Source: Cyanophora paradoxa CCMP329 (lineage: Eukaryota; Plantae; Glaucophyta). From it: a stretch of DNA of 64,000 nt. Below, in pieces: positions 17,821-63,503 of the stretch. Within the stretch, counting starts at the first letter, position 1. Each line of letters begins with the position of its first letter. Where the stretch lies: assembly GCA_004431415.1 (NCBI GenBank), contig QPMI01000101.1, positions 124,001 through 188,000 on the forward strand, given 5' to 3'. The position numbers and the translations under genes are program-made. The notes beneath the pieces were generated by a model. The model was not told where the DNA came from. It worked only from the letters and a program-made list of their open reading frames with translations, and did no database searches.

Positions 17821-18809
17821 TCTAGATCTGCTGCCGCTGCTGCCGTCAGAGCGGATGTCGATCCTCGGCAGCTGGCGCTCCCGATCCAGCAGATCGATCG
17901 TGCGCTATTGCTACAGCTAGCGCTGCGCTCGCGATCCAGATCACAGCGTACACGCCGTGACGTGCACAACGATCGTCACGGCGTCTCGACAAGGCGCCAT
18001 CTGCAGGGCCTCGCCTTCCGCGGACAGCGATTAAATATTGCGTTTCTGCAGCTGGATGAAATGTACAGAGCGCTGCTGCAGGAGGAGGATCGGCGCGCTG
18101 CCGGCGGCGACAGCACCGACCCGACGAACATCGGCGCGTACGCAACCTCTCGCGTGATCCAACCGCTTCGGCAAGCTCACTCGGCGATTCTGCTTTCGCA
18201 CGCGTTCTGTCGGCAGGCTTCAAGGCTTATAATTACTCTCGCTTGAGACTTCTCAGAGTCTGCGCGGCCGGCGTGTGCATCATGATGACAGCACTCAGTG
18301 ACTGATCACGATCATGCGATTACGATCGTAACTAGGACGTCTTAGCTTTTGATCTAAAAGAGCTCACTTGGCCCCCAGTGGGGGTGTTCGGGTGCCCACC
18401 CTAGGCCAAAATGAAATGTCCCGAGCTCCCAAAACCCGGGTTTTCTCGCCGGATCCTAGCAAGCCATGTCCCTATATATGCTAGGAGTCCGGAAACGTGT
18501 GCCGGGAGTTCCGAGTCCTATCTGGTGGACCAGGAATGGGCAGTAACACATTTTCGAAAAATGCAATCTAGCGCCTCACCAAGTGCACGTGGCGGTATAT
18601 CTGCCGGACCATGCAAGTGCGCCTAAACGCGCGTGATATCGATGAGCCCGATCGCGACGATTCATGTCATACATGCCGAGACCGGAGGAGCACAGGGTGG
18701 CCCGCTAGGCCGCCTAAAGTACCTTCGTACAAGCGAGTCCCTGCGGAGCAGGAGTGGCCTTGGGTCTTGGGGTTTCAAGGGGTGAGGGTGGCCGCTCTTT
18801 GTTTTAAAA

Positions 18810-21800
18810 CGGGGCCCCAATGTCATGCCCAATCGTGCCCAAGTACGTGCCCAGACGAAGTTCGGACATGCTCAAGGAGGGCACGACTCGGAAACTCTTT
18901 CACAACGAAAGGCTATTCCAAAATCGATCGTCCAGGGCACGCGGATCGCAGTCCTTCACGCTGATGGATACCAGCTGCGCGCCCAACGTGAGCTCCATTG
19001 TCGTGTCCAAATGGTGCTCAAAACCATACCCAAACGTGCCTCGCGGGGCACGTTTGAGTATGATTTGGGCACGTCGGAGCATGGGGTTTGGGCATGACAG
19101 AGACGCACGTCGCCGACTGCAAGGTTGGCGATCTCCCCGGCTCTCTTGCGGGCGAAGTCAATCATCCTGTTCCTGTACGCCGAGAGACGATCGTTCAGGA
19201 CCCCTACGTAAGCCTTGTACTTCTCGTGCTCCTTCTGCGGGAACAATGTCAGTGCCGACAGCCATTAACGTAAACAGGACATAGCGAACCATGAAAGCGA
19301 TCGGCATCCCCTCGATGGTGCCACGACGGAAGCCGCCTTTGAGATGGCGCTCTGCGGAGTCCAAGTACTGCTCCGATTCCTTAGATTCCTCCTCCTCCAT
19401 GTCCTTCACATACTTGTCCCAGAGGATCTGCTGCTTGTCGGTGGGCACCCAGCTGTCCCGGGCAGCTGCAGCCTCAACATCTTCGTCCGTGCCGACATCG
19501 ACAGTGATTCCCGCATCCTGCACGACGGGCATGGGAGGGAGCAGCATCAAAGCGTTCAAGAAGGCCTAGGGAGGTGTGCACCTTCATGAGCTCCTGGAGC
19601 GTAGTGCCCTGCACGACCTCCCGCTCGTTGTAGACACGATCAGAGGAGGCGGGAGCCAGGTTTCCGAATCGCTCGGACGGATCTCTGTTGAACATGACCT
19701 TGAAAGGCGTCTGCTTGTGCCCCTTGGTGAAGATGGATGTGTTCATCTGCCACTGGACCTGTGCCTGGGTTGGTTGCAGGGCGCGAGCATGTCGGCACGG
19801 TCATACCGGGCCCAGGGCGGACACCCAGTCTTTCGTTCCGTTGAAGAAGCAGTACGCAGTGACTCGGCGGCCGAGCGTCCGGTTCGCGCGCTCCACAGAA
19901 CCTGCAAAACACGGTCATACCCGAACATGCTCAAACATGCTCGGCACGTGCTCAAAAAGATCGTTGGGCACGATTGAGCATGATGTTGGGCATGTCGCGG
20001 GCATGACGCGGGCATGGCGGGGGCATGGCGAACCTTGGTGCCAGGGACGGTAAGGCGCGCCGGTGATGATCACTATCTTGCGCCCCGTCACTCGCTGCCA
20101 TTGCTTGCACGTCGAGCGAACAACCTGCGTCCACTTTCAGCTGATATGACGGCCCTAGGCAGACGTCCAAATGTACCCTGTTTACGAACTCGGACCCGTT
20201 GTCGTGATGCAGCACTTGTGGGACTCCCATCACCTGGAAAATCTCGACAAGAGCCTGTGCGACGCACCAGGCGGCCTTGAATTCCAGCGGCCTCAGGATG
20301 CTGAACCGAGAGAAGTGGTCCTGTAAATGCACCCATCATGATCAATGAACAGCCAGACAGATGGTGTTGAACAGCGAACCCGGACGTGCAAGACGTATCT
20401 GTACCGGCGAGTCGGGTGATCGAACCACTCGACATCCTCGCAGTCGAGCCTGTCCATGGCCGCCGCTTCCTCGTCGGTCTCAGGGATCCTTGGCACTCGA
20501 ATCGGGATGGGAAGCTTGCTGAAGTCCTTGAGGTCGATGACGACGCGAGACCAGGCGGACTTTGCGACGATAGGCTTCATGCCCGCGAGCTTCGCAGCGA
20601 GCTCGACCGCCCTGTTGATGGCACAGTACGGGCAGCGCTGCGTACGGGTGTCAGTCTTGCTCAGGGTCCCCGCGCGGGCAGCTGCAGCGAGCACCTTGCA
20701 GAAGTACTCGACGAACTTGTCTTTGATGGCATAGACGCGCGAAACCTTGCCCTTGACGGTGTACGCAGCCTCGTGCGCCGCGTTATGGTACTCCTGCGCG
20801 CGCGTCGTCACGTCGTGCTCCGGGCACGGTTTGAGCACGATTGGGCACGATGTTTGGACACGTCCTTACCGACAGGATTTCGAAGACCTCGCGGGCGTCC
20901 TTCGGCAAGATACGCACTTGAGTAGGGGCCGTCGCCGCCACCGCTCCAGTGTTGTTCTTCTGGCGCTTCTTGGCCACCTGCACTTCCTGCATGACATACA
21001 CCGCGGGTCCGTTCGGGTCGCGCGGGTTTGGCTGCTCGACTAGAACGTAGTTGCCGGTGCGGTTCTTGATCCGCTGATCGTTACTCTTCTTGGCCCTCCC
21101 TCCGCAGCCTTCTGGTTCTGCTCGTCGCTCTTGTTCGGATCCGCTGGCGCCTCCAGGTCCTTCCTCTGGACGCGCGCACGCACGACTGGCTTCGACGCGT
21201 TCAGCCGCTTGATCGCCTCCTTGTCGTTCGCGTCCCCGGCTGCCTTCATGTCCCGCTCCCAGACCAGCGCGTTGTAGCGTTCCGTCTCGTCGAGTGCGCG
21301 CTCCGCGTTGGGATTCCCCTGCTCGTCCTGCATGTCCTTGTGCTTCCGGAATGGCGCTAATTCGTTGCACGCCTTTATGAACTCTTCGTACGTCCAGCGC
21401 ACGGTGTGCCGCGTGCTGGTCGTTTCCTCGCTGGGCGCTGCGCCGCCGTCCGAGCCGTCCGATTGCCGCTGGGTCGCAGCAGTTGGTGCCCTACGCTGCT
21501 CCGGAGGGACGACATACGCGCCAGGCGGCGGGCCAGCTGCTGCCGTGCTGTTCCCGCCACCATTGCTTGAACTGCTCGAAGGCCCCGCGCGTGCCTGCTG
21601 GAGCTGATCTAAGAGAGATCTAGCAAGATGCCCGCCAGGACAATGGCCGCGGTGGCCCTCCTTGTGATCGCAGTCGCAGCTCGAGAACGACGAGATCAGC
21701 TGCTCGATGTGGCAGGTACACTTGCGGCCGCACCACGCGCGACCCGCGAGCACAGCTGTCTGTAGCGCGAAGCTGCAGAAGACGCAGAACTGCAGAATCT

Positions 21801-21962
21801 GGCCGGCCGCCTGAATCTCCTCCGGCGACAGGCCCAACATCGCTGCAGCTGTCTGGGCTCTAACACCTGTCGTGCCCAACACAAAGCTTACGTGCCCAAG
21901 CCTTTGGGCACGACGCGCCCTAGCCCCGACGTGCCCAAAGCGGATTTGGGCACGGGGCCCCG
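18810..21962 (-). mobile_element. DNA transposon encoding a retroviral-type integrase (Ginger/KRBA2-like); no RT or LTRs
   Basis: Inverted CGGGGCCCC at 18810-18818 and 21954-21962, each followed inward by clustered RTGCCCAA motifs; single internal integrase gene. No TSD identified, so ends are approximate. Confidence 0.7.
18900..21840 (-). CDS. Intron-containing DDE integrase/transposase with HHCC zinc finger; one frameshift near 21100
   Basis: YHNAAH...CKRCPYC (HHCC); SRVVIDLKDF; DHFSRFSILRPL; GVPQVLHHDNGSEFVN; TGAPYRPWHQG|SVERANRTL; MNTS...KQTPFKVMFNRDP; C-terminal LAVGD|LVSISV. Confidence 0.88.
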
Positions 21963-22103
21963 GCAATCATGTAATAGGCCCGTCCAACTCGATTCTGCTA
22001 CGTGGTGCAAAAGGGTACGTAGTGGAGTGGCAACACTAGTGACTCCAGCCTTCCAGCCGGGTACAGAGGCTCTTTGCAATTTCCATCGGCGAAGGGGAAG
22101 CAA

Positions 22104-25100
22104 TTTTTTTTTTGGTGAATTACCGGCCACAGTCTCTAGACACCAGCACTGCGGGGGCTGCCCAGGGGGCATAGAGACAAAAAAGCAAAATAACTAATTT
22201 TAAGATAAGACAAAGAGCCAAAATCGACAGTAAAAAAGGAAAGACACAGAGCTCGAGACAGATCGATTGCGAGAAGAGACGATAAATCGAGCAGATCTAG
22301 GGACAGAGGATAACTGACACGAAGAAGAGCCAGAGCTAGAGGATAACTGACACGAAGAAGAGCCAGAGCTAGAGATACCATCAATATCAGAAGGAATTAC
22401 ATCACTAAGAAGCGGGGGACAAAATTGAGAAAGATAAAGAACAGGAAGAAGACAAGTAAGAGGAACAACAAGACGACATGGAGGCGGAGGCGAAGCAGGA
22501 CGATGCGAAAGGGCAGAGCTACGGCACGAGGTCGAGGAGGACACAGGAGGCGGAGCAGGCGGATCAAGAGCAGGCAAAAGAACAGTCAAAGGAATCACTA
22601 AAGCCGGCCGGGGTCGAGGCGGGCAATCGAACTGCAAACGACGGCGAACAACAGGTCGAGCACGAGGACTATAGCTAGTATTGAAACTAACTCTAGCATC
22701 AACACTACGATCAGAATCCGAACCAGACCAAACTAAACTAGAAGACGAAGAAGTACGCCGGCGCCGGCGGGATACGATCGCGACCAGCGAAGCAGAAGAC
22801 AAGGACAAAGGCGGTAGTCCGGTATCAAGAACAAAGGCCGGAGGGTCCGGCCCGGCAAACCGCCGGGGGAAGTAGAAGGAGCCGCAGGCTCGGCAAGCCG
22901 GCGACGGGTACGACCACGAGTCCGGAAGGAGATCGGGGAAGCCGGTCCCGGAGCTGAGGGCCCAGGAGCAGAGCCAGGAGAAGGTAAGCCCGGCGAGAAA
23001 TCTGACCCGGAGCCGGAACCCAGCGAACGACGACGACGAAGAGGCCCCGAGGAGCCACGACGGGGGAGCTACCGAGCAAAGTACTGACAGCCGGCGCCGA
23101 ACACGGCGGCGGAGGTACCCCGCAGACAGTGGCAGGCGGAGAGTCCAGGGTCGATCGAGAGATCCGCCGACGGGAATGCGGCGGGGGCCGACGAGACGGA
23201 AGAGGCGAGGAGGGGGCCGAGGAAGGGTCGGAGGCAGGGGAAGGGCCACGAGCAGGTGACGGGGATCGCTGCCGGCGCCGAAGAGAGGGCAGCAAACTTT
23301 GAAAGCAGGAGAAAGGTCGGGTGGCGCCGGATCAGATGACACGGAGGTCATGGCCATGGGCGGTGCAGAGAGAGACGAGCTCGAGGGCGCAAGGGCCCGA
23401 CGAGGGCGCCGGCGGCGAATCTCACGAGCGCCAGGAAGCGGGATAGGACCCGCAGATGGGACCCGAGGCGCCGAAGGGGGAGCAGGGAGCCGGAATGACG
23501 GGGAGATCGAAAAGAGGACAGTCTCGCCAACACTCGGAAGCGGGGCAGAGGCCGAGGACCCGGAGCTCGAGGGGGGGAGGGAGGGCGGAGGAGGAGAGAG
23601 GAGGCGGCTATTCGAAGGGTATGGAGAATCGAGAGCGGAGGCGAGGGAGGCCGAAGTGATGGCGAGCTCTGGAGGCGAGGGGCCTGCAAGCGATCCGGGA
23701 AAGTGGATGCAGACGCAAAGAGACCGGGGACGTAGAGGCGGGAGGGGCATGCAAAAAGATAGTGCCGCCCAGCGTCACAGTTGCAGAAGCGGGGGCAAGA
23801 AGGATGGGCTGAAGAGGGGGCTGAACCAGGAGGACGTCAGAAAGAGGGCCTCGCAGGGGCGGAAGTGGAGGAGCAAGGGGAAGAGGTAAGAAGGGGTATG
23901 GAGCTGCAAGATGACCAGGGACCTGCCGGGGAACAGGCAAGTGAAGAGGCCCCGTGACAGCAAGTTGTAAGGAGGGAGGAGGCAGAGGCGGGGCCAGAGG
24001 GCCAAGGAGCACAGGGATCGGGACCGCAGGGAATGGGGGGAAAGGAGCGTCGAGAGGGGCAGCGAGAGCAGGAATAGGAATGGGCCCAAGGGTCACTACA
24101 GGGGCCAGAGCAGGAGGGGACGGCGCAGGAGGCGGGCGACCACCAGGGATCCCCAACGGGACATTCCCACGAACGGCAAACTCCGCAGGATTCCGGAGGA
24201 CAGAATCGATGTCACGCGAAGAGACGAGGTTGTCAGCACCGCCCGAAGAAGGAGCGCCGGACGAGTCAGAATCAGAGCTTGAACTCAGTGACTAGAACGA
24301 TGAGAACCGGTACCAGACTCTGAATCATGTGCGTCATCATCCGAGGCAGCCTGATCATCAGCGTCAGCAGCAGCCAAGCGAGCGCGCCGCTCCTCCAACA
24401 AGGCCGAAGCCTGCGAAAGGGTGAACTCGAGGTACGACATATTTCTGTCCCAGGCGGCAACAAGCGCGGCGCGGTTGTAAGAAGGCGCATCAATGTCAGC
24501 CTCCTCAAGATCGCACCGAGCGCGAGCAACCTGTTGGATGGAAAATACGCCAGCAAGGATCGCTCCAAGTGAGCGAAGGCAGAAGGCGGGGTTAACTTTA
24601 CTGCGCAAAATGGGCCCAGATAAATCCGGAACCGAGAGGATGTGGAAGAGAGAGAGCTCAGGCACTGCGACCTCTTCACGCTCATCCGGTGGAAGAGTAG
24701 AAGCCCAGAAATTCAGGCGCTCACGAATGAAATCCCAGAACGAACGAGAAAGCGGGCACTCAGAGAAAACGTGCGCGTGAGAGCGAGCAGATCCGTCATT
24801 ACAAACCCGACAGAAACGACGGCGGGGCGACTGTTGCTCGCCCAAACGATACAATTTGAAATGCAAACGGTAAAGAGCATCGATCCAAAGCATCGGGAAA
24901 CACTGAAGGACGACAAGATTAGGAAGACGGGACGGAGACAAGGCGCCGGGAAACCCCCACTTAGCATCGGGCATCTGAGCGTGGCTAGACACATCGCGAA
25001 GCCGCTGGACCTCAAGGCAGTAGAAGCGACGAACAGAGGAGAGGCGGAGAGGGAGCATACGAGCGAAAGTGAACGCAAGATTATCAAGAGAAAGAAAGGC

Positions 25101-25746
25101 CGAAGGGCCTGCGCCAAGAACAAAAAGGCCAGGCAGGGTCCCGCGACGAAGAGAGAGGAAGACAGCGCTGAAGCAAACATGCAGCGGGAGCAAACGGGAC
25201 AGAATTGAATTGGAGCTCGAGGATAGGCCCACAGGGTGGGAAGCCGCAGGGCGGCAAGGAACGCGCGGTATGTAGTCCAGCACCCGTGGAATTATCTGGT
25301 TATCGCGAACGGGAAGGCAACAAAAGTACCACTTGGGCCTCGAAGGAGAGCAAACGAGGCGTCCGGTCCGGACCACCAGAGATGCTGAGGCGGCGATGCA
25401 GGGGCCTCGAGAACCTGGCGCCAAGTAGCCGGGAGCGCAGAACACAGACTAGGGAAAAAGGAGTGGAGGGCGGAGGAGGCAGCTGCTGGAGCCCGGAACC
25501 CCCGGGCAGCACAATCCCAGATATCGCAGACCCGCAGCAAGCCGGACCGTGCACAGCGACTCCAGTCGACCTCGTCGCCGGGAGTACTGAACAGAGGATT
25601 GAAGAAAAGAGGTTGGGATAACACTTCGGGAGAGTTACGAGGTTGACACACGCCCTGGCGCTGAGCCCACTCGGAGAGAGTCCGCTTCCAAATAGGAGGC
25701 AAGTCAAGTCTGTCAAGTGGGAGGCGGAGCGAGACAAGGGCGGGGC
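22104..25746 (-). mobile_element. 5'-truncated non-LTR retrotransposon (L1/Tx1-like) with poly(A) tail
   Basis: ORF2 C-terminal remnant QPLFFNPLF...RFCRVCNDGSARSHAHVFSECPLSRSFWDFI (zf-RVT CCHC), frameshifted near 25320; T10 at 22104-22113 (poly-A on minus strand); flanking AAGCAA at 22098-22103 and 25747-25752 as candidate TSD. Confidence 0.8.
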
Positions 25747-44934: not shown

Positions 44935-46427
44935 TTGCAAGGGGGGGTACCCCCTCCCTTGCTCCCCTGGTGAATTGGTGCGGCGTACTTTCTGTGTTAG
45001 CAATTTTTGTAAGATGAGATTCTTTGCATGCGCTCTCGTATAGGTGTGATCGCATCGTAGCCGCTGCGAGCGGCGAAAAAAAATGCAAGGGCGGGGCTGC
45101 GCAAACATGTCGAAGCCGCTCCTCGCCTGCTATTGCTATATGCGCCGGACCACGTGCTCCTGAATGCTCTCAATGCGTTCTACAAACTCTGTCATACATG
45201 CCTGGGCTCGAGAAGCGGCGCGTGGCGCGCTAGGCCGCCTCAAGTACCTGTTGTACCGGGCGCCGGAAAAAAAGTGCTCCTGAGAGTTTCAGGCGATTGC
45301 TGGGTACACATGCCAGAGCCCGGCCCAGAGGTCGAGGTCGCGGGGCCGAGCATCCGCATGCGGAGCGCGGGCCGGAGCGGCGCGCCCGCAACGTCGCGTT
45401 CCGGTGCGCTTCCGGCTGCGGCCTCGGCGGCGACACCTGCACCGTGCGGGAACAGCGCTAGCCGCGGATGCGCTCCTGGTGGCGAATGCGGGCACAGCCG
45501 CTCCTGGTGGCGGAGAGCGCCGCGAGAGTGCAGGAAGAAGGCGCCCGAGACGCCGCGACGCCGGCTGTGTGCGCGCCCGCGGCCGCGGCGTTTTGCCAAC
45601 GCTCTCGGTTTCTGATGGACTCCGATTCATGATCGAGCAGACTCCAGCTCGATGTTGTCAAGCTCTTCAAGCGCGGTTCAAGCACGGGGCGGGTCGCCAC
45701 TTGCACGCCTCGGCCCCACGTATGCGTGGCTTGAACCGCGGCCGGCGTTCCGTAGCAGAGTGTGGCGGCCGCGGCGTCGCAGCATTCGCAGCTGCTCCTA
45801 GTACGTCGCGTCGGGCTAGGCCCCGCCCTGCGCCGCGGCTGTCCGGGGCGAGCTGACGCCTCGGCCCTGCGCAGGCTATGCGCAGGGCCCGGCGCCACCT
45901 GCCCGTCCGCCCGCTTCCCCGCCCGCCGCCCTGCCGGCTGCCTCAGCGTCGTCGACTCCAGGTTCGCTCCGCCGCTGCTGCCGCGCACCTGGCCCGGCCG
46001 CCCCCGCTGGGCCCCGCCCCCGCACGGCCGCTGTCCGGGGCGAGCTGACGCCTCAGCTCTGCGTATGTGCAGGCTATGCGCAGGGCCCGGCGCCACTTGC
46101 CCCTCCGCCCGCTTCCTCGCCCGCCGCCTCGCCGGCTGCTTCAGCGTCGTCGACTCCAGGTTCGCCCCGCCGCTGCTGCCGCGCACCTGGCCCGGCCGCC
46201 CCCGCTGGGCCCCGCCCCCGCACGGCCGCTGTCCGGGGCGAGCTGACGCCTCAGCTCTGCGTATGTGCAGGCTATGCGCAAGGCCCGGCGCCACCTGCCC
46301 CTCCGCCCGCTTCCCCGCCCGCCGCCGCCTTCGCCTGCCTGCCTGCCTGATGCCGTCGCCCGCGACGCCACCCCACCTGCCCGCCTCGCGACCCCGCCCG
46401 CCTCGCCCGGCCGCCCGCCTTGCCTCT

Positions 46428-46576: not shown

Positions 46577-46959
46577 GTAACACTTAAGTAATGCGCGCAC
46601 TTAAGTAATGCGGTCCCAAATTAATGCGTTTTTCGCTGGCAAAACGCATTAATTTGGGACCGCATTAATATCTGTATCTACCCCCCTACTGGCATACTAC
46701 TGCAGCCAAAAAGCCTTGAAGCTTCAAAACGCATTAATTCGGTGCCGCATTATTATCAATACTAGGGGTTCGGGTCCAAAAACGCATTAATTTCTGGCGC
46801 ATTAATTAAGTGTTACACGGTAGATATCTAGCCTAGTAGAGCATGATCATGATCGATATCTAGATCATGATCAGGAGCTCGCGATCGCGCGCTGCTCTCA
46901 GGCTTTGCTTTTCCTCTCGCTTCTGCCGGCCCAATCGATATCATCGCATATGCAAGTAT

Positions 46960-56898: not shown

Positions 56899-57945
56899 TG
56901 TAGTGGACCAAACAATTCCGTGGACCATCAAATTTTTTTGGTCCGCGTTTTTGATCCATCTTCGAGTAAATGCGTAGCCCGACACAAAGAGGGGGATTGT
57001 GTGACGGGAGGGCGAGCCCTGCACGGGTAGCAGCGCATAGAACTGCGTGGGGTAGCGCACCCATTTGCATGCCGAACCAGGCCTGGCGCGCAGTAGCGGC
57101 GGCAACATCCGGGCCTGAATTTCGAAATCTATCTGAACTCGAGCACTCGCGATCGTGGCACCGACTGATCTCTAGATCTAGCTGCGCCCTGTCGTCAGTC
57201 GGTGCCCTGTCGACGTCGTCTTCGCCCGCGTGCCACATCGCGATGGATATCTAGCCTATAGCTATGCTCGGGCTGCGAATCCGCAGCAGCCCGCACGCGC
57301 AGCAGCCCGTCCGCCGCGCGCGCGCGCAATATTGCGCATGCAAGCGCAAGCGCAAGCTCGAGCCTGCGTGCAGCAGGCAGAGCATGCGCAGACGCGAGTG
57401 TGCGCGCTAGCTCCGAGGCTCCACGATCGATTCCACACACAGGGCTCGCTCGCGCTATAGCTATAGCTATAGCTAGCGAGCGAAGCTGCATGCGCAGCTA
57501 GATCGACGACGCCTGCGCCGACAGCTGCAAAGAAGCGCAGGCGGCCGCCAAAGCGAACGTCAACATCAAGGTCTTCACGCGCAGGCTATAGCTAGGTGTG
57601 CAGAGGTGTTAACGTTCCATCAGGCCAGCGGCTGGCCCACGGGTCTTCTGGCGACGTTCCCCATGGCCAGCTCGGGCGGGCGCTATTCTCCGCCGAGGAG
57701 ATCTTCGATTTCCTAACAATCAAGGTGGGCCCCCATGCATATATATGTTACGCAAGCGGTCTAGTCTGCGTTACACTTTGTTTCACAAATGCGCAACACA
57801 ATTGTTTCACTATGTGTCACACATTGCATCAATTTGCGTAACGTTTGCGTAACACAACGACGCAGCGGGAGCCCACCCCCGCCCCCCCTTCCCTTCCGTC
57901 CCCCTCCCCCCTCCCCCCCCCCCCCTCCTCCCCGACGGCCTCGCA

Positions 57946-58530
57946 GCGGCTCGCGAAGGCTCTGGAGCACTTCCAAATCGACGTCATCGGCGCCTTGTAC
58001 GCCCCCCGGGCCCCGGCTCGTTCCCCCTGGCATCTCCTCACCCCCCGCAGGGGCCTGGACGTGGACGCCTCGACGGGCGGCTTCACGGACGTGCTGCTGG
58101 CGAGCGGCGCGCGGCGGGTCTACTCCGCTCGGACGAGCGCGTCGTCTTCCTCGAGAAGACGAACGCGCGGAGCCTCTCCCCCCACCCCCCCGGAGCCTCT
58201 CCCCCGCCCCCCGCCCTAACCCTAACCCTAACCCCGCCCTCGAGCTCGAGCTCGTCGACGTCGTCGTGTGCGCGGCCCCAGCCCCCCTCCGGAGCCCTCC
58301 CCTTCTCGGCTGAGGCCCGGCAGGTGCGACGCGCCGTTCATCGGGCTGGCGACGGTGCTCCCGGCGGCGATGGCGCTGGGCGCCGACGGCTGCCGCCTGG
58401 TGGCCCTCATCAAGCCCCAGTTCGAGGTGGGCAAGGGCAACGTCGGCAAGGGCGGCATCGTGCGGGACCCCGCCCTCCACCGGGCCGTCTGCGAGCGCAT
58501 CCTCGCCTGGCTCGACGACCCCGACGGCCG
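57946..58530 (+). pseudogene. Captured fragment of TlyA/hemolysin-A-family rRNA 2'-O-methyltransferase
   Basis: RLAKALEHFQIDV, LDVDASTGGFTDVLLASGARRVY, VFLEKTNARSL, VDVVV|CDAPFIGLATVLP, LVALIKPQFEVGK..VGKGGIVRDP; no N- or C-terminus, internal deletion, introns retained. Confidence 0.85.
58214..58231. repeat. Interstitial telomere-like (CCCTAA)3
   Basis: CCCTAACCCTAACCCTAA followed by CCC, within the tlyA fragment. Confidence 0.6.
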
Positions 58531-59960
58531 CCACGCCGCCGAGCGCGCCGGCCTCTCCGGTCGCAGCCCCCACGGCCACGGCCCCTGCCCCCGCGCCAGC
58601 CCCCCGGGTCGCCGCGGCTCGCCGGGCGGGGCGGCGGCGCCGCGGGCGGCTCCGCGTCTCGTCGCATGGGGCGGCGGCGTGGTGGGCGGCGGCGCGGCTT
58701 GCGGGGCGGGAAGGAGGCGCGGCGGGCGGCGCCGCGGCTCGCTGGGCGGGGCGGCGGCGCGGCGCCGGCGGGCGGCGGCGCGTCTCGCCGCATGAGGCGG
58801 CGGCGAGGCGGCCGGCGCCGCGGCTCGCCAGGCGGTGCGTGAGGCTCGGCGTTCGGCGGCGCGGCTTGCCGCATGTTAACGTTGTACATGCATATGGCGA
58901 TATTCAAGAGTAACATAGGGGACACGTCACAACGTTGGGGCACGGTGGCGGGGCATGGTACCGGTGGGGCACGTCGAGGCACGGCCGCATGGTGGGGCAC
59001 GTCGGGGCATGGTGGGGCACGATGGGGCCCGGGGCACGTGGGGCACGTCGGGGCATGGCCGCAAGTAACATGTACTAGAATCCTTAGGGGACACGTCACA
59101 GCGTTGCAATTGGGGCACGGTGGCGGGGCATGATGCATATGGGGCACGTCGGGGCGATTTCGTTCCAACAAGCGATGCCCAGTGAATGAGTGATCATGCC
59201 ATGATGACATATATATATAAGGCTTGTTTAAGCCTTTGTAAATAATATGCAATATGCATGCCATGATGCTGTTATGTATATTCAGTGGTAATGGAGTCAC
59301 CCACCAAGGTCAGTGCCACGGTGTCCACCAAGGTCAGTGCCACGGTGTTCATGATGACAGAAACGGGTGAGGTTAAGTTGTCAGTGTGCATGTCATGATC
59401 AGGTTTCAAGTTTCACTGAGTCAAGCCTTGAAGCCGAAGTTTGAGAACTCGTACGCCGTGACGGGCAAGCCTTGAAGGGTAATTTGCGAGTCCCGACCTT
59501 TCAAGTTTTTATATATCCTGAAAGCCCCTTTAATTGTCTTCCTCATGATGTCCTCTGATCTCATATATGATATACACCTAATTTCCATCCAAAGATATGC
59601 AGTTCGGAAAGAATCGAGTATGTACTGATGCCATGATGTGGATGGCATATGGTGCCCTGGTCTCGATCTGGTCATCCCCCTCAGGGCCTAGCGCTCGGCG
59701 CCCCGGGCTCATCTTATAGATTCTGAATCTCTGATGCAGGCGCTCCGATGCAGGCGCGGGGCCCGCGGCCCGTCCTGGGGAGAACGGGCGCAGTTCCGCG
59801 GGCCCATCCCCTCATGTGCCCCCCTCACTCCCTCGAGGCGAGCCTTTTGTCTCGCGCCCGGCGGCCCCGGCTCATCTTATAGATTCTGAATTTGGGTTTC
59901 ATACACGTCGTTCTTGTGTGCTCCGATGCAAGCGCGGGGCCCGTTCTGGGGAGAACGGGC

Positions 59961-60840
59961 GCGTCCGCCCCGCCCGGCGAGCCGCTCCTCCGCCCGCCGC
60001 GCCTCCGCCCCGCCCGGAGAGCCGCGCCGCCGCGCGCCGCGCCTCCGCCCCGCCCGTCGAGCCGCTCCTCCGCCCGCCGCGCCTCCGCCCCGCCCGGAGA
60101 GCCGCGCCGCCGCGCGCCGCGCCTCCGCCCCGCCCGGCGAGCCGCTCCTCCGCCCGCCGCGCCTCCGCCCCGCCCGGAGAGCCACGCCGCCGCGCGCCGC
60201 GCCTCCGCCCCGCCCGGCGAGCCGCTCCTCCGCCCGCCGCGCCTCCGCCCCGCCCGGAGAGCCACGCCGCCGCGCGCCGCGCCTCCGCCCCGCCCGGCGA
60301 GCCGCTCCTCCGCCCGCCGCGCCTCCGCCCCGCCCGGAGAGCCGCGCCGCCGCGCGCCGCGCCTCCGCCCCGCCCGTCGAGCCGCTCCTCCGCCCGCCGC
60401 GCCTCCGCCCCGCCCGGAGAGCCGCGCCGCCGCGCGCCGCGCCTCCGCCCCGCCCGGCGAGCCGCTCCTCCGCCCGCCGCGCCTCCGCCCCGCCCGGAGA
60501 GCCACGCCGCCGCGCGCCGCGCCTCCGCCCCGCCCGGCGAGCCGCTCCTCCGCCCGCCGCGCCTCCGCCCGCCCGGAGAGCCACGCCGCCGCGCGCCGCG
60601 CCTCCGCCCGCCCGGCGAGCCGCTCCTCCGCCCGCCGCGCCTCCGCCCCGCCCGGAGAGCCGCGCCGCCGCGCGCCGCGCCTCCGCCCGCCCGGCGAGCC
60701 GCTCCTCCGCCCGCCGCGCCTCCGCCCCGCCCGGAGAGCCGCGCCGCCGCGCGCCGCGCCTCCGCCCCGCCCGGCGAGCCGCTCCTCCGCCCGCCGCGCC
60801 TCCGCCCGCCCGGAGAGCCGCGCCGCCGCGCGCCGCGCCG
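59961..60840. repeat. GC-rich minisatellite: alternating 40-bp A/B subunits forming an 80-bp higher-order repeat (~11 units)
   Basis: A=GCCTCCGCCCCGCCCGGAGAGCCGCGCCGCCGCGCGCCGC, B=GCCTCCGCCCCGCCCGGCGAGCCGCTCCTCCGCCCGCCGC alternate; distal units lose a few bases. Confidence 0.93.
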
Positions 60841-61862
60841 CCGCCCACCACGCCGCCGCCGCCGCCGCGCGCCGCGCCGCCGCCCACCACGCCGCTGCCG
60901 ATTGCGTTACACAGTGTTCGCCACAGTGTATGGACTGTGTTACGCAACTCATGTGTGGCTTATGTGTAACTCAATGTAAGAGACTGCGTAACACAATGCA
61001 CACAGGCGCACCTTCAGAGGCAGTACACGGAGACTGAAACGGGCTCCTCCGGCGGCGTCGCTTCCCCTCGTCGGCGTTGCCAGCCGTCGGTCCTTCTTGC
61101 CTTTGTCCGGGCCGATGTGTGTTCAGGAGGGTCTCCCCGCTGCGGCTTTTGCCGCAGTGCAATTGGCTTCTTTGCGGACGGCCGGTCGCCGCCTGCTCCC
61201 GGCAAACGCTGTGCCAAGGCTGCGCGCGACGATAGACAACACGTCTGGGCTCGAAGCGCTAGCGGGCGCGGCGGCGCAGCGGCGCTCAAGCTCGTGGCCT
61301 GGGCGGCGCCTTCTTGTTCGAGCTGCTGCAGCTGCTGCTTCAAGAAGGTACGTTGTCCGCCTCCGGCTCCGCGGCTCCTCGCTTCGTCACGAAGTAGATC
61401 TAGAAGCACCGGCGCATGCGCGCGATGCTTGCGCAGTGCGGGACGCGAGGGCAGCGAACCTCTGCCTCGTTAAAACCTTCACATCAGCTGCGCGCCGGCT
61501 CCATCGATCGTGCTCGCACTTGCACTTGCACTGTCGACGTCGACGCTGCACCTGCACCTGCACCGTCGACGTCTGGCTTCTAGATCTTGCCCATCGTGCG
61601 ATCGCCCCGGCCGTACGCGTACGAGCTCTAGCTATAGCTATAGGGATCGACTGCGGCTCTAGCTAGCTGTATCCTGGCGTAACGCAATCCCCCTCTTTGT
61701 GTCGGGCTACGCATTTACTCGAAGATGGATCAAAAACGCGGACCAAAAAAATTTGATGGTCCACGCACGGAATTGTTTGGTCCACTACAATGTGCGTCTA
61801 GGTACTCCGCCGCGGTTTTTCGGCGCAAGCCGTTAATTGCTTCTAAGTTCATGGCTCTCATA

Positions 61863-63503
61863 CTAGCAGACCGCGCCCGGCCCTGTGCAAGTGCGGCAAG
61901 TGCGGGCCGCGCGCGGAGGTGCAAGGGGGGGGTACTGGTACACATTGCAGGGTACTTGGGGGGGAGGCGGGGGGCGCAGGGGAGGGGGGCGGAGGGGGCA
62001 GCTAGAGAGGCAAGGCGGGCGGCCGGGCGAGGCGGGCGGGGTGGCGAGGCGGGTAGGTGGGGTGGCGACGCTGGCGGCGGCGGGCGGGAAAGCGGGATCC
62101 GGAGGAGAGACAGGTGGCACCGGGCCCTGCGCGTAGCCTGCGCATGCGCAGAACCGAGGCGTCAGCTCGCCCCGGACAGCGGCCGTGCGGGGGCGGGGCC
62201 CAGCGGGGGCGGCCGGGCCATGGCCATGTGCGCAGCAGCAGCGGCGGAGCGAACCTGGAGTCGACGAAGTTGAAGCAGCCGGCAGGGCGGCGGGCGGGGA
62301 AGCGGGCGGAGCGGCAGGTGGCGCCGGGCCCTGCACGTAGCCTGCGCATGCGCAGAACCGAGGCGTCAGTTCGCCCCGGACAGCGGCCGTGCGGGGGCGG
62401 GGCCCAGCGGGGGCGGCCGGGTCAGATGCGAAGCAGCAGCGGCGGGGCGAACCTGGAGTCGACGAAGCTGAAGCAGCCGGCGGGGCGGCGGGCGAGGAAG
62501 CGGGCGGAGCGGCAGGTGGCGCCGGGCCCTGCGCGTAGCCTGCGTGCGCAGGGCCGAGGCGTCAGCTCGCCCCGGACGTCGACAGCGGCGCCGGCGGCGC
62601 CGGCGCGGGGCCCAGCGAGGTCGGCCGGGTGACGCGCGCGGCAGCAGCGGCGCCGGCGGGGCGAACCTGGAGTCGACGAAGCTGAAGCAGCGGGCGGGGC
62701 GACAGGCAGGGAGCAGCTGCTGAAGCAGCTGGCGCGCGGAGCAGCTGGGAGCAGCGGGCAGGGAAGCAGCCCGGCGCGGCGAACTAGGAGCAGCTGTGAA
62801 TACTGCGACGCCGCCACCCGGCCCTCCACTACCGTAGTACAGCTAGTACGGAGCGCCGGCCGCGGCCGCCGGTCAAGCCACGCATCCGGTCCGGCCGCGC
62901 CGCGGCGGGCCGAGGCGTGCGAGTGGTGATCCGCCCCGTACTTGCGCTTGAAGGGCTTGACATCGCCGAGCTGAAGTCCGCCTGAACTGGATCATTGGCG
63001 GAGTCCGCCTGGAGGGTGGGCGAAACGCCGCGGCCCGGGTGCGCACCGGAGAAGGCGCCCGCTTCTTTCTGCACTCTCTCGAGCTCACGGCGGGTACTGC
63101 AACACGATATCGGCATCCATTCCTTCCCTGCTCGAGTCTCGAAACAATCCAACTCGCAGGAGCGCTTTTTTCCGGCGCCCGGTACAACAGGTACTTGAGG
63201 CGGCCTAGCGCGCCGCACGCCGCTTCTCGAGGCCAGGCATGTATGACAAAGTTTGTAGAGCGCATTGAGAGCAATCAGGAGCACGTGGTCCGGCGCGTAT
63301 AGCAACAGCAGGTGAGGCGCGACCTCAACATGTTTGCGCAGCCCCGCCCTTGCATTTTTTTTCGCCGCTCGCAGCGGCTACGATGCGATCACACCTATAC
63401 GAGAGCGCATGCAAAGAATCGCATCTTACAAAAATTGCTGACACAGAAAGTACGCCGCACCAACTCACCAGGGGAGCAAGGGAGGGGGTACCCCCCCTTG
63501 CAA
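61863..63503 (-). mobile_element. Non-autonomous rolling-circle-like element (Helitron/Helentron-type), copy 2, inverted relative to copy 1
   Basis: Reverse complement of 44935-46576: same TTGCAAGGGGGGGTAC 5' end, subterminal inverted repeat, central ~200-bp tandem array, 3' hairpin and CTAG. Confidence 0.7.

What the first reader, a model, noticed from the sequence alone, without database searches (positions are those of the whole stretch)
18810..21962. Integrase transposon whose introns are built from its own terminal motif
Seen: the motif RTGCYCAA and close variants (ATGCCCAA, GTGCCCAA, GTGCTCAA) is clustered at both ends (18821-18890, 21868-21955). It also fills three introns of the integrase gene (~18975-19109, ~19904-20034, ~20806-20868); in the first two it points one way in the 5' half and the other way in the 3' half. 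I did not see it clustered in the exons. Known: subterminal repeats are usually transposase binding sites, and Ginger-type elements encode intron-containing retroviral-like integrases. Inference: the introns act as internal transposase-binding arrays for autoregulation or transpososome assembly, or derive from miniature copies of the element's ends. I know of no description of this architecture.
Basis: partly seen in the sequence, partly recalled or inferred. Interest (0 to 1): 0.8.

Follow-up and report, generated by a model that had tools for sequence, protein, structure and literature searches.

The report
Transposon hides own ends in introns
A multi-copy DNA transposon of the alga Cyanophora carries arrays of its own end-cluster sequence inside three of the nine spliced introns of its transposase gene, likely stray copies of its ends that persist because splicing removes them and that would likely also bind the transposase.

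Summary
RTGCYCAA occurs 18 times in 18800-21970 and 4 times in the other 60.8 kb (chance 4.3). A matrix built from the end clusters alone finds 14 sites in three introns, 0 in six other introns and 0 in exons. RNA contigs of four runs splice all nine introns. The gene encodes a Ginger2/KRBA2-like DDE transposase of Cyanophora paradoxa, in roughly 6-9 near-identical copies. This copy lacks about 550 nt of mRNA, and apparently up to 4.2 kb of DNA, at 18928. The motif is the conserved Ginger2 tip (11 of 12 bases match a relative's tip). Intron 18975-19108 holds a 101-bp mini-element with two full TGT...ACA tips but no target duplication. Eight candidate intron gaps of six related elements lack end motifs. 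The title overstates: 3 of 9 introns carry arrays, and the true ends are not established. Best reading: end copies pasted internally, expanded by slippage and tolerated where spliced out, likely bound by the transposase. Selected enhancer or brake function is untested. I found no description in ten literature searches and no earlier scan note. A new variant of a known kind.

The parts
18810..18890 (.). Left motif cluster: CGGGGCCCC, a full Ginger2-type tip TGTCATGCCCAA at 18821 (+), further motif copies, one inverted near 18885; transcribed and unspliced (3' untranslated)
   Evidence: RNA contigs cover 18729-18931 unbroken
18928..18931 (.). Deletion junction (4-base overlap TCGT): other copies carry about 550 nt more mRNA (C-terminal 180-190 aa with a Cys cluster); DNA contigs run on for up to 4175 nt here
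   Evidence: searches (X17 record 6, loose ends; X10, X14, X8 records), P0004-P0006 versus P0001/P0003
18975..19108 (-). Intron 9 (134 nt, GT-AG, spliced) with palindromic motif array
18999..19099 (.). 101-bp mini-element inside intron 9 with two inward-facing complete tips (TGTCRTGYCCAA ... TTGGRCAYGACA); no target-site duplication
19902..20033 (-). Intron 5 (132 nt, spliced): almost wholly motif array, 10-12 nt period, inverted halves, 11-nt slippage gradient at its 5' end; 6-nt repeat AGGTTC at its borders
20794..20869 (-). Intron 1 (76 nt, spliced): one-directional array of 3-4 motif copies
18880..21840 (-). Transposase gene (ATG at 21840): 10 exons, 9 introns in this copy; H2C2 finger, DDE core (D392, D483, E525 of P0004), SH3-like part; six short introns without arrays at 20638-20694, 20321-20379, 20125-20176, 19759-19806, 19518-19581, 19235-19289 (48-64 nt)
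21097..21097 (.). Apparent frameshift; all 8 laid runs read one extra C here, so likely an assembly error of the window
   Evidence: table 4
21862..21962 (.). Right motif cluster upstream of the ATG: a full tip at 21868 pointing away from the gene, two head-to-head motif pairs (21891-21912, 21930-21954), CGGGGCCCC; partly transcribed

Best explanation
This is a transcribed, multi-copy Ginger2-like transposon whose end-cluster sequence recurs as arrays in three spliced introns, likely because copies of its own ends were pasted inside it and survive only where splicing removes them. Shown: the transposase gene, its splicing, the confinement of the motif to the two end clusters and three introns, a two-tipped mini-element in one intron, and the match of the motif to the tips of related elements. 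Inferred: pieces of the ends entered by self-insertion or abortive gap repair after excision; slippage (10-12 nt units) and fold-back copying then expanded them. Insertions in exons were lost, and those in introns or untranslated DNA were kept, the hairpin likely keeping the splice sites close in an alga with 48-64 nt introns. Because the arrays repeat the tip sequence, the transposase would likely bind them as passive decoy sites. I judge this binding a by-product rather than the reason for their persistence.
For: Motif equals the tip: TGTCRTGCCCAA matches the tips of TIR-bounded relatives at 6-11 of 12 bases (15 tips of 8 elements; L022 11/12). Complete tips occur at only four places in the 64 kb, two of them facing each other in intron 9. 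A left-cluster block recurs with the same spacers in intron 5 (24/27 identical) and intron 1 (31/40), above every one of 200 shuffles. The three array introns are the three longest (76, 132, 134 nt versus 48-64). Intron 5 shows an 11-nt tandem gradient. End motifs spread inward in non-coding DNA of relatives too (L051, L048). The family rearranges internally: a 939-bp deletion variant, the 18928 deletion and a short fused gene model. A second TIR element in the window appears to hold a nested TGTTAC-tipped unit inside an intron (reading unconfirmed). Relatives transpose with plain introns: 0 of 8 candidate intron gaps in 6 elements carry end motifs.
Against: No target-site duplication flanks the 101-bp mini-element, and its flanks are not the AT-rich Ginger2 target, so direct transposition is not shown. 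Removing it leaves 33 nt, shorter than any other intron here. The arrays share motif and phase but are not long copies of each other or of the ends; that could mean age or selection on the motif. After the CRTRY anchor, 17 of 28 intron cores keep the rest of the motif (ends 10 of 12, exons 1 of 34), which is compatible with selection. All copies are near-identical (no variant letters listed inside the element in 4 DNA runs), so no divergence test was possible. The true ends could not be read.
Confidence: 0.5

Rival explanations
1. The intron arrays are selected internal transposase-binding sites. They load transposase for end pairing (an enhancer, as recalled for phage Mu) or sequester it and block transcription (a brake), and introns are the only place in a compact element where such sites cost no coding sequence.
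For: Three separate arrays keep the motif at about one helical turn (10-12 nt) with differing spacers. Introns 1 and 5 keep the core but have lost the cleavable TGT tip. The right cluster overlaps the transcribed 5' region. An internal transposase site that restricts piggyBat is published (PMC11707139, passages).
Against: Six of nine introns have no array. Eleven TIR-bounded relatives show no motif cluster inside the gene, and 0 of 8 intron gaps carry one. The period could simply be inherited from the end arrays by copying and slippage. No binding data exist.
Confidence: 0.3
2. The three introns were created by insertion of miniature copies of the element (introner-like), which brought or co-opted splice sites.
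For: Intron 5 is nearly all array and has a 6-nt border repeat. Intron 9 leaves only 33 nt without the mini-element. Ginger-like introner families are listed for Mycena and Amoebophrya (PMC12130899, supplement file 8 rows).
Against: The three introns are not near-identical copies. Their donors resemble those of the plain introns (GTTCGC in introns 3, 5 and 8). Introns 1 and 9 have border repeats of 2 and 0 nt. No such intron was seen elsewhere in the window.
Confidence: 0.12
3. The motif is a site for a host factor (chromatin, methylation or splicing aid) common to Cyanophora mobile elements, not for this transposase.
For: A related phased array (CRTGCCCC) lies at 58916-59155 in another element, and other phased arrays occur in the window.
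Against: The motif matches the tips of related transposons from unrelated metagenomes. Host-gene regions of the window (XPG, WW, histidine-kinase, Sel1 hits) show only the chance rate.
Confidence: 0.08

Closest known systems
Ginger2/Tdd DNA transposons (Bao, Kapitonov, Jurka 2010, PMC2836005; parts 1-2 of 5 read) and their KRBA2/SCAND3 derivatives (Llorens 2012, PMC3575427; part 1 of 3 read)
   Same: H2C2 plus DDE integrase-like transposase without reverse transcriptase; TGTNR tip sequence; best named hits are KRBA2-like; groups with TIR-bounded, TGT-tipped elements in a quick tree; motif arrays near the ends as in relatives fetched here
   Different: Nine or more introns; tip-motif arrays inside three of them; no TIR pair or 4-bp AT-rich target duplication demonstrable in this copy; the parts read mention introns only for Ginger1 and describe no motif in them
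Introners (Gozashti 2022 PMC9860276, supplement search only; Gozashti 2025 PMC12130899, passages and 12 of 14 supplementary files searched)
   Same: Miniature TIR-like sequence removed by splicing; a few Ginger-like introner families are listed
   Different: Here the arrays sit in the element's own gene, differ from each other and mostly lack target duplications; no dispersal into host genes was seen in the window
piggyBat internal inhibitory transposase site (PMC11707139, passages)
   Same: Extra end-type sites inside the element could restrict activity
   Different: That site is subterminal (within about 130 bp of the tip), not intronic, and is shown by experiment
GingerRoot (Cerbin 2019, PMC6839031; part 1 of 7 and passages)
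   Same: Integrase-related DNA transposon of the plant lineage; gene-fragment capture resembles the second element in this window
   Different: TA...TA termini and 6-bp duplication, not seen here

Membership tests
Ginger2/Tdd | Integrase-like transposase with H2C2 finger and DDE triad | tested here: met
   Pfam rve E=1.3e-8 above cutoff, Integrase_H2C2 E=9e-4 below cutoff; D392, D483, E525 conserved in A1
Ginger2/Tdd | No GPY/F or YPYY motif, no OTU or Ulp1 domain (these mark Ginger1) | tested here: met
   No such Pfam hit on P0004; motifs not seen by eye in P0004
Ginger2/Tdd | Termini TGTNR | tested here: inconclusive
   Four TGTCR tips exist, one correctly placed at the left (18821); none faces inward at the right, where 21915 reads CGTCG
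Ginger2/Tdd | TIRs of about 50-180 bp | tested here: inconclusive
   No long TIR in this copy; a joint 18822/21891 on opposite strands in 3 of 4 DNA runs, at the element's depth, hints at a TIR of 39 bp or more in other copies
Ginger2/Tdd | 4-bp target duplication in RTATAY | tested here: inconclusive
   None at the candidate ends; CGGGGCCCC stands on both sides but may belong to the flanking repeat or the element; ends undefined
Ginger2/Tdd | Phylogenetic placement with Ginger2 transposases | tested here: inconclusive
   Quick tree only (careful search unfinished): with 11 TIR-bounded elements and KRBA2-like P0016, apart from LTR pol proteins, SH-aLRT 92; no curated Ginger, Polinton or Ginger1 references included
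Introner | Near-identical introns repeated at unrelated sites | tested here: not met
   The three introns share motif blocks only; none elsewhere in the window; genome not available
Introner | Target duplication at intron borders | tested here: inconclusive
   Border repeats of 6, 2 and 0 nt for introns 5, 1 and 9; 1-3 nt for plain introns
GingerRoot | TA...TA termini and 6-bp duplication | tested here: not met
   Tips are TGTC; no 6-bp duplication at the candidate ends
LTR retrotransposon integrase | Part of a pol gene with RT and RNase H between LTRs | tested here: not met
   Free-standing 934-aa protein without RT; nine spliced introns
Internal transposase-binding array (enhancer or brake) | Transposase binds the internal sites and activity depends on them | not testable with these tools
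   Needs binding and transposition assays

The most novel reading that the evidence does not exclude
An active eukaryotic DNA transposon uses its spliceosomal introns as containers for helically phased transposase-binding arrays: one stretch of DNA is a protein-loading or braking site at the DNA level and a self-folding intron at the RNA level. The arrays arise from the element's own ends, which would catch intron gain from a transposon's tips in the act, inside its own gene.
Probability: 0.3. Interest if true: 0.72.

Novelty: new variant of a known kind. Interest (0 to 1): 0.46.

Why it matters
Ginger2 elements have, to my knowledge (recalled), no biochemistry of end recognition. This element repeats its tip sequence some 25 times in ends and introns, which names a candidate binding site and makes end recognition directly testable. 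If the intron arrays are bound and selected, introns are a place where a compact transposon stores regulatory protein-binding DNA at no coding cost. If they are passengers, they still show a transposon's own ends being turned into, or absorbed by, spliceosomal introns, which bears on how introners originate.

Tried and rejected
No whole genome is held, so no genome-wide copy collection, end definition or host-intron count was possible; the host control is the other 60.8 kb of the window. Viral contigs hold no relative and no match to the tip array. The single-sequence fold of P0004 was useless (pLDDT 39.6); the alignment-based fold had not finished, so no fold search was run. The C-terminal Cys cluster got no Pfam name and only an E=0.47 PDB hit. 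The Atlas gave unnamed or KRBA2-like clusters at 0.91-0.93 (a lead only); 'CXC-like, DNA-binding' is my recollection. The run search listed no holder on record as RNA; the four runs laid are guessed RNA, and I rely on their spliced joints. My first exon model missed one in-frame intron and misplaced another; RNA corrected it. A generic cluster score did not separate the element from GC-rich window segments, so I did not use it as evidence. CGGGGCCCC as a 9-bp target duplication or as TIR tip: neither could be established. A search with the putative exon of the second element found nothing. A recalled precedent (Angel inverted repeats in a Tol2 intron) was not confirmed. A hand-listed spacing tally is not used; spacings are cited. 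Earlier scan notes: none on this element.

Full report
Observation. The strict motif RTGCYCAA has 22 hits in the window, 18 of them in 18800-21970; shuffles of the whole window give 4.33 +/- 2.2, so the 4 outside hits are the chance rate. To avoid circularity I built a weight matrix from the nine sites of the two end clusters only. At 10 bits it finds 14 sites in three introns (342 nt), none in six other introns (335 nt), none in 2236 exon bases, and 10 isolated sites in the other 60.8 kb. That outside DNA includes ordinary host-type genes: Pfam hits on 5 of 40 long frames tested (XPG, WW, ubiquitin-like, histidine kinase, Sel1). Ten strict hits in the three introns compare with a shuffle mean of 0.09 and a maximum of 2 in 5000. 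Same-strand neighbours are mostly 10-13 nt apart. Introns 19902-20033 and 18975-19108 switch orientation in the middle and fold as hairpins (z -5.8, -5.5); intron 20794-20869 and the six plain introns do not (z -0.5 to +1.9).

Gene and splicing. The gene lies on the minus strand from ATG 21840. Contigs of 4 of 4 RNA-type runs from four studies skip nine GT-AG introns. Contigs of 4 of 4 DNA-type runs run through them (18928-20303 and 20274-21268). The array introns are the three longest (76, 132, 134 nt against 48-64). All eight runs read one extra C at 21097, so the frameshift there is likely an assembly error. The spliced exons match the EukProt model P0001 of Cyanophora paradoxa. Ten related models lie on nine contigs. 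Contig depth relative to the unique left flank is about 6-9 (a rough figure, as the tool warns). The full protein P0004 (934 aa) has an H2C2 finger, an rve core with D392/D483/E525, and a C-terminal Cys cluster missing here. At 18928-18931 this copy lacks about 550 nt of mRNA, and DNA contigs of three runs continue for up to 4175 nt of other sequence. A second contig's model (P0003) ends like this copy, so the deletion is probably real.

Family. A full-library HMMER search gave 8079 hits, the named close ones KRBA2-like or from the same alga. Eighty related loci came from metagenomes. Of the 43 that are 2400 nt or longer, 12 have inverted repeats around the match; I used 11 and left out L072. 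They show TGT tips, AT-rich flanks and short motifs repeated near both ends, as published for Ginger2 termini and targets (PMC2836005, parts 1-2; PMC3845634, passages). A quick tree puts P0004 with these elements and a KRBA2-like protein, apart from LTR pol proteins (SH-aLRT 92; careful search unfinished; no curated references). KRBA2/SCAND3 derive from Ginger2 (PMC3575427, part 1). I call the element Ginger2-like, because TIR and target duplication could not be shown in this copy.

What the motif is. TGTCRTGCCCAA matches the tips of those relatives at 6-11 of 12 bases (15 tips of 8 elements; L022 11/12). So the intron motif is the tip sequence itself. Complete tips occur at four places in the window: 18821+, 18999+, 19099- and 21868+. 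Two face each other in intron 9 and delimit a 101-bp mini-element; a scan for TGT...ACA pairs gave six hits in 64 kb, this among them. It has no target duplication, and 33 nt of intron remain without it. A block of the left cluster recurs with the same spacers in intron 5 (24/27) and intron 1 (31/40). Intron 5 also has an 11-nt slippage gradient and a 6-nt border repeat.

Ends. RNA contigs run through the left cluster into the flank. The flank 18206-18809 is a high-copy repeat, and a LINE-like element starts at about 22103. A joint between 18822 and 21891 on opposite strands, in 3 of 4 DNA runs at the element's depth, suggests that most copies have a TIR of 39 bp or more that this copy lost on the left. 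No inward-facing tip stands at the right.

Generality. In 11 TIR-bounded relatives the end motif forms no cluster inside the gene; in L051 it spreads about 430 bp inward in non-coding DNA. Six of them have candidate introns (8 gaps, 7 with GT..AG); none carries the end or tip motif. Intron arrays are thus not a family trait among those fetched, though that search favoured intron-poor elements. In this window a second element (56899-61789; about 110-bp TIR, TGTAG tips, duplication ATGT) seems to hold a TGTTAC-tipped unit with arrays inside a putative intron. The reading of its exons as a decayed transposase rests on eye only (one search found nothing).

Mechanism. Most likely (0.5), pieces of the ends were pasted inside the element by self-insertion or gap repair, grew by slippage and fold-back, and persisted only in introns and untranslated DNA. 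The transposase would likely bind them, as a by-product. The selected-array reading (0.3) is favoured by the kept phase, by kept cores (17 of 28 against 1 of 34 in exons) and by loss of the cleavable tip in two arrays. It has a precedent in the inhibitory internal site of piggyBat (PMC11707139, passages). It is weakened by the relatives and by the six plain introns. Introner-like creation (0.12) fits intron 5 best; Ginger-like introners are listed for Mycena and Amoebophrya (PMC12130899, supplement file 8). A host-factor site (0.08) is least likely.

Novelty. Ten full-text searches gave no description of tip-motif arrays in a transposon's own introns; the library lacks most subscription papers and Repbase reports. 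Cyanophora is not named in the main text or in 12 of 14 supplementary files of the 2025 introner survey. It appears once, in a genome list, in the cut supplement of the 2022 survey. GingerRoot (PMC6839031, part 1 and passages) and a Cyanophora methylome paper (PMC12344493, passages) say nothing on it. The scan's own notes hold nothing on this element. Verdict: a real, apparently undescribed variant of a Ginger2-like transposon, with function untested; interest 0.46.

Noticed in passing
window 56899-61789: Second Ginger-like element: about 110-bp TIR, TGTAG...CTACA tips, 4-bp duplication ATGT. It holds a nested unit 57746-60993 with TGTTACGCA tips and motif arrays, apparently inside an intron (57725-61005, 33 nt without the unit), carrying what looks by eye like a captured TlyA-type methyltransferase gene piece and a 40-nt satellite.
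   Followed up: partly
window 58916-59155: Phased array of CRTGCCCC (about 14 copies, 10-17 nt apart), a close relative of the finding's motif, inside the nested unit.
   Followed up: partly
window 21734 and protein P0022: In two RNA-type runs a short form joins 21734 directly to the exon coding KAFFDWCAI of the C-terminal Cys domain, on contigs of much greater depth than the full form. The joint seems to create a stop codon; it may come from a deleted derivative or from exon skipping.
   Followed up: no
window 20299-21239: 939-bp deletion variant (4-base overlap) in 4 of 4 DNA runs and one RNA run; matches gene model P0009.
   Followed up: partly
window 22103-25450: Very high-copy LINE-like element on the minus strand (poly-A end at about 22103-22113, weak zf-RVT hit); other copies are inserted in the left-flank repeat at 18773 and 18806.
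   Followed up: partly
window 18206-18809, 44935-45288, 63151-63503: High-copy repeat left of the element shares a 60-nt block with an inverted pair of 354-bp repeats elsewhere in the window.
   Followed up: partly
window 46578-46817: Another palindromic phased array (AATGCG/CGCATT) bounded by GGTAACAC...GTGTTAC; looks like a further mini-element.
   Followed up: no
L048:3860-4720 and L051:4080-4510: Related metagenomic elements with end motifs amplified over 400-850 bp of non-coding DNA (83-nt period in L048).
   Followed up: partly
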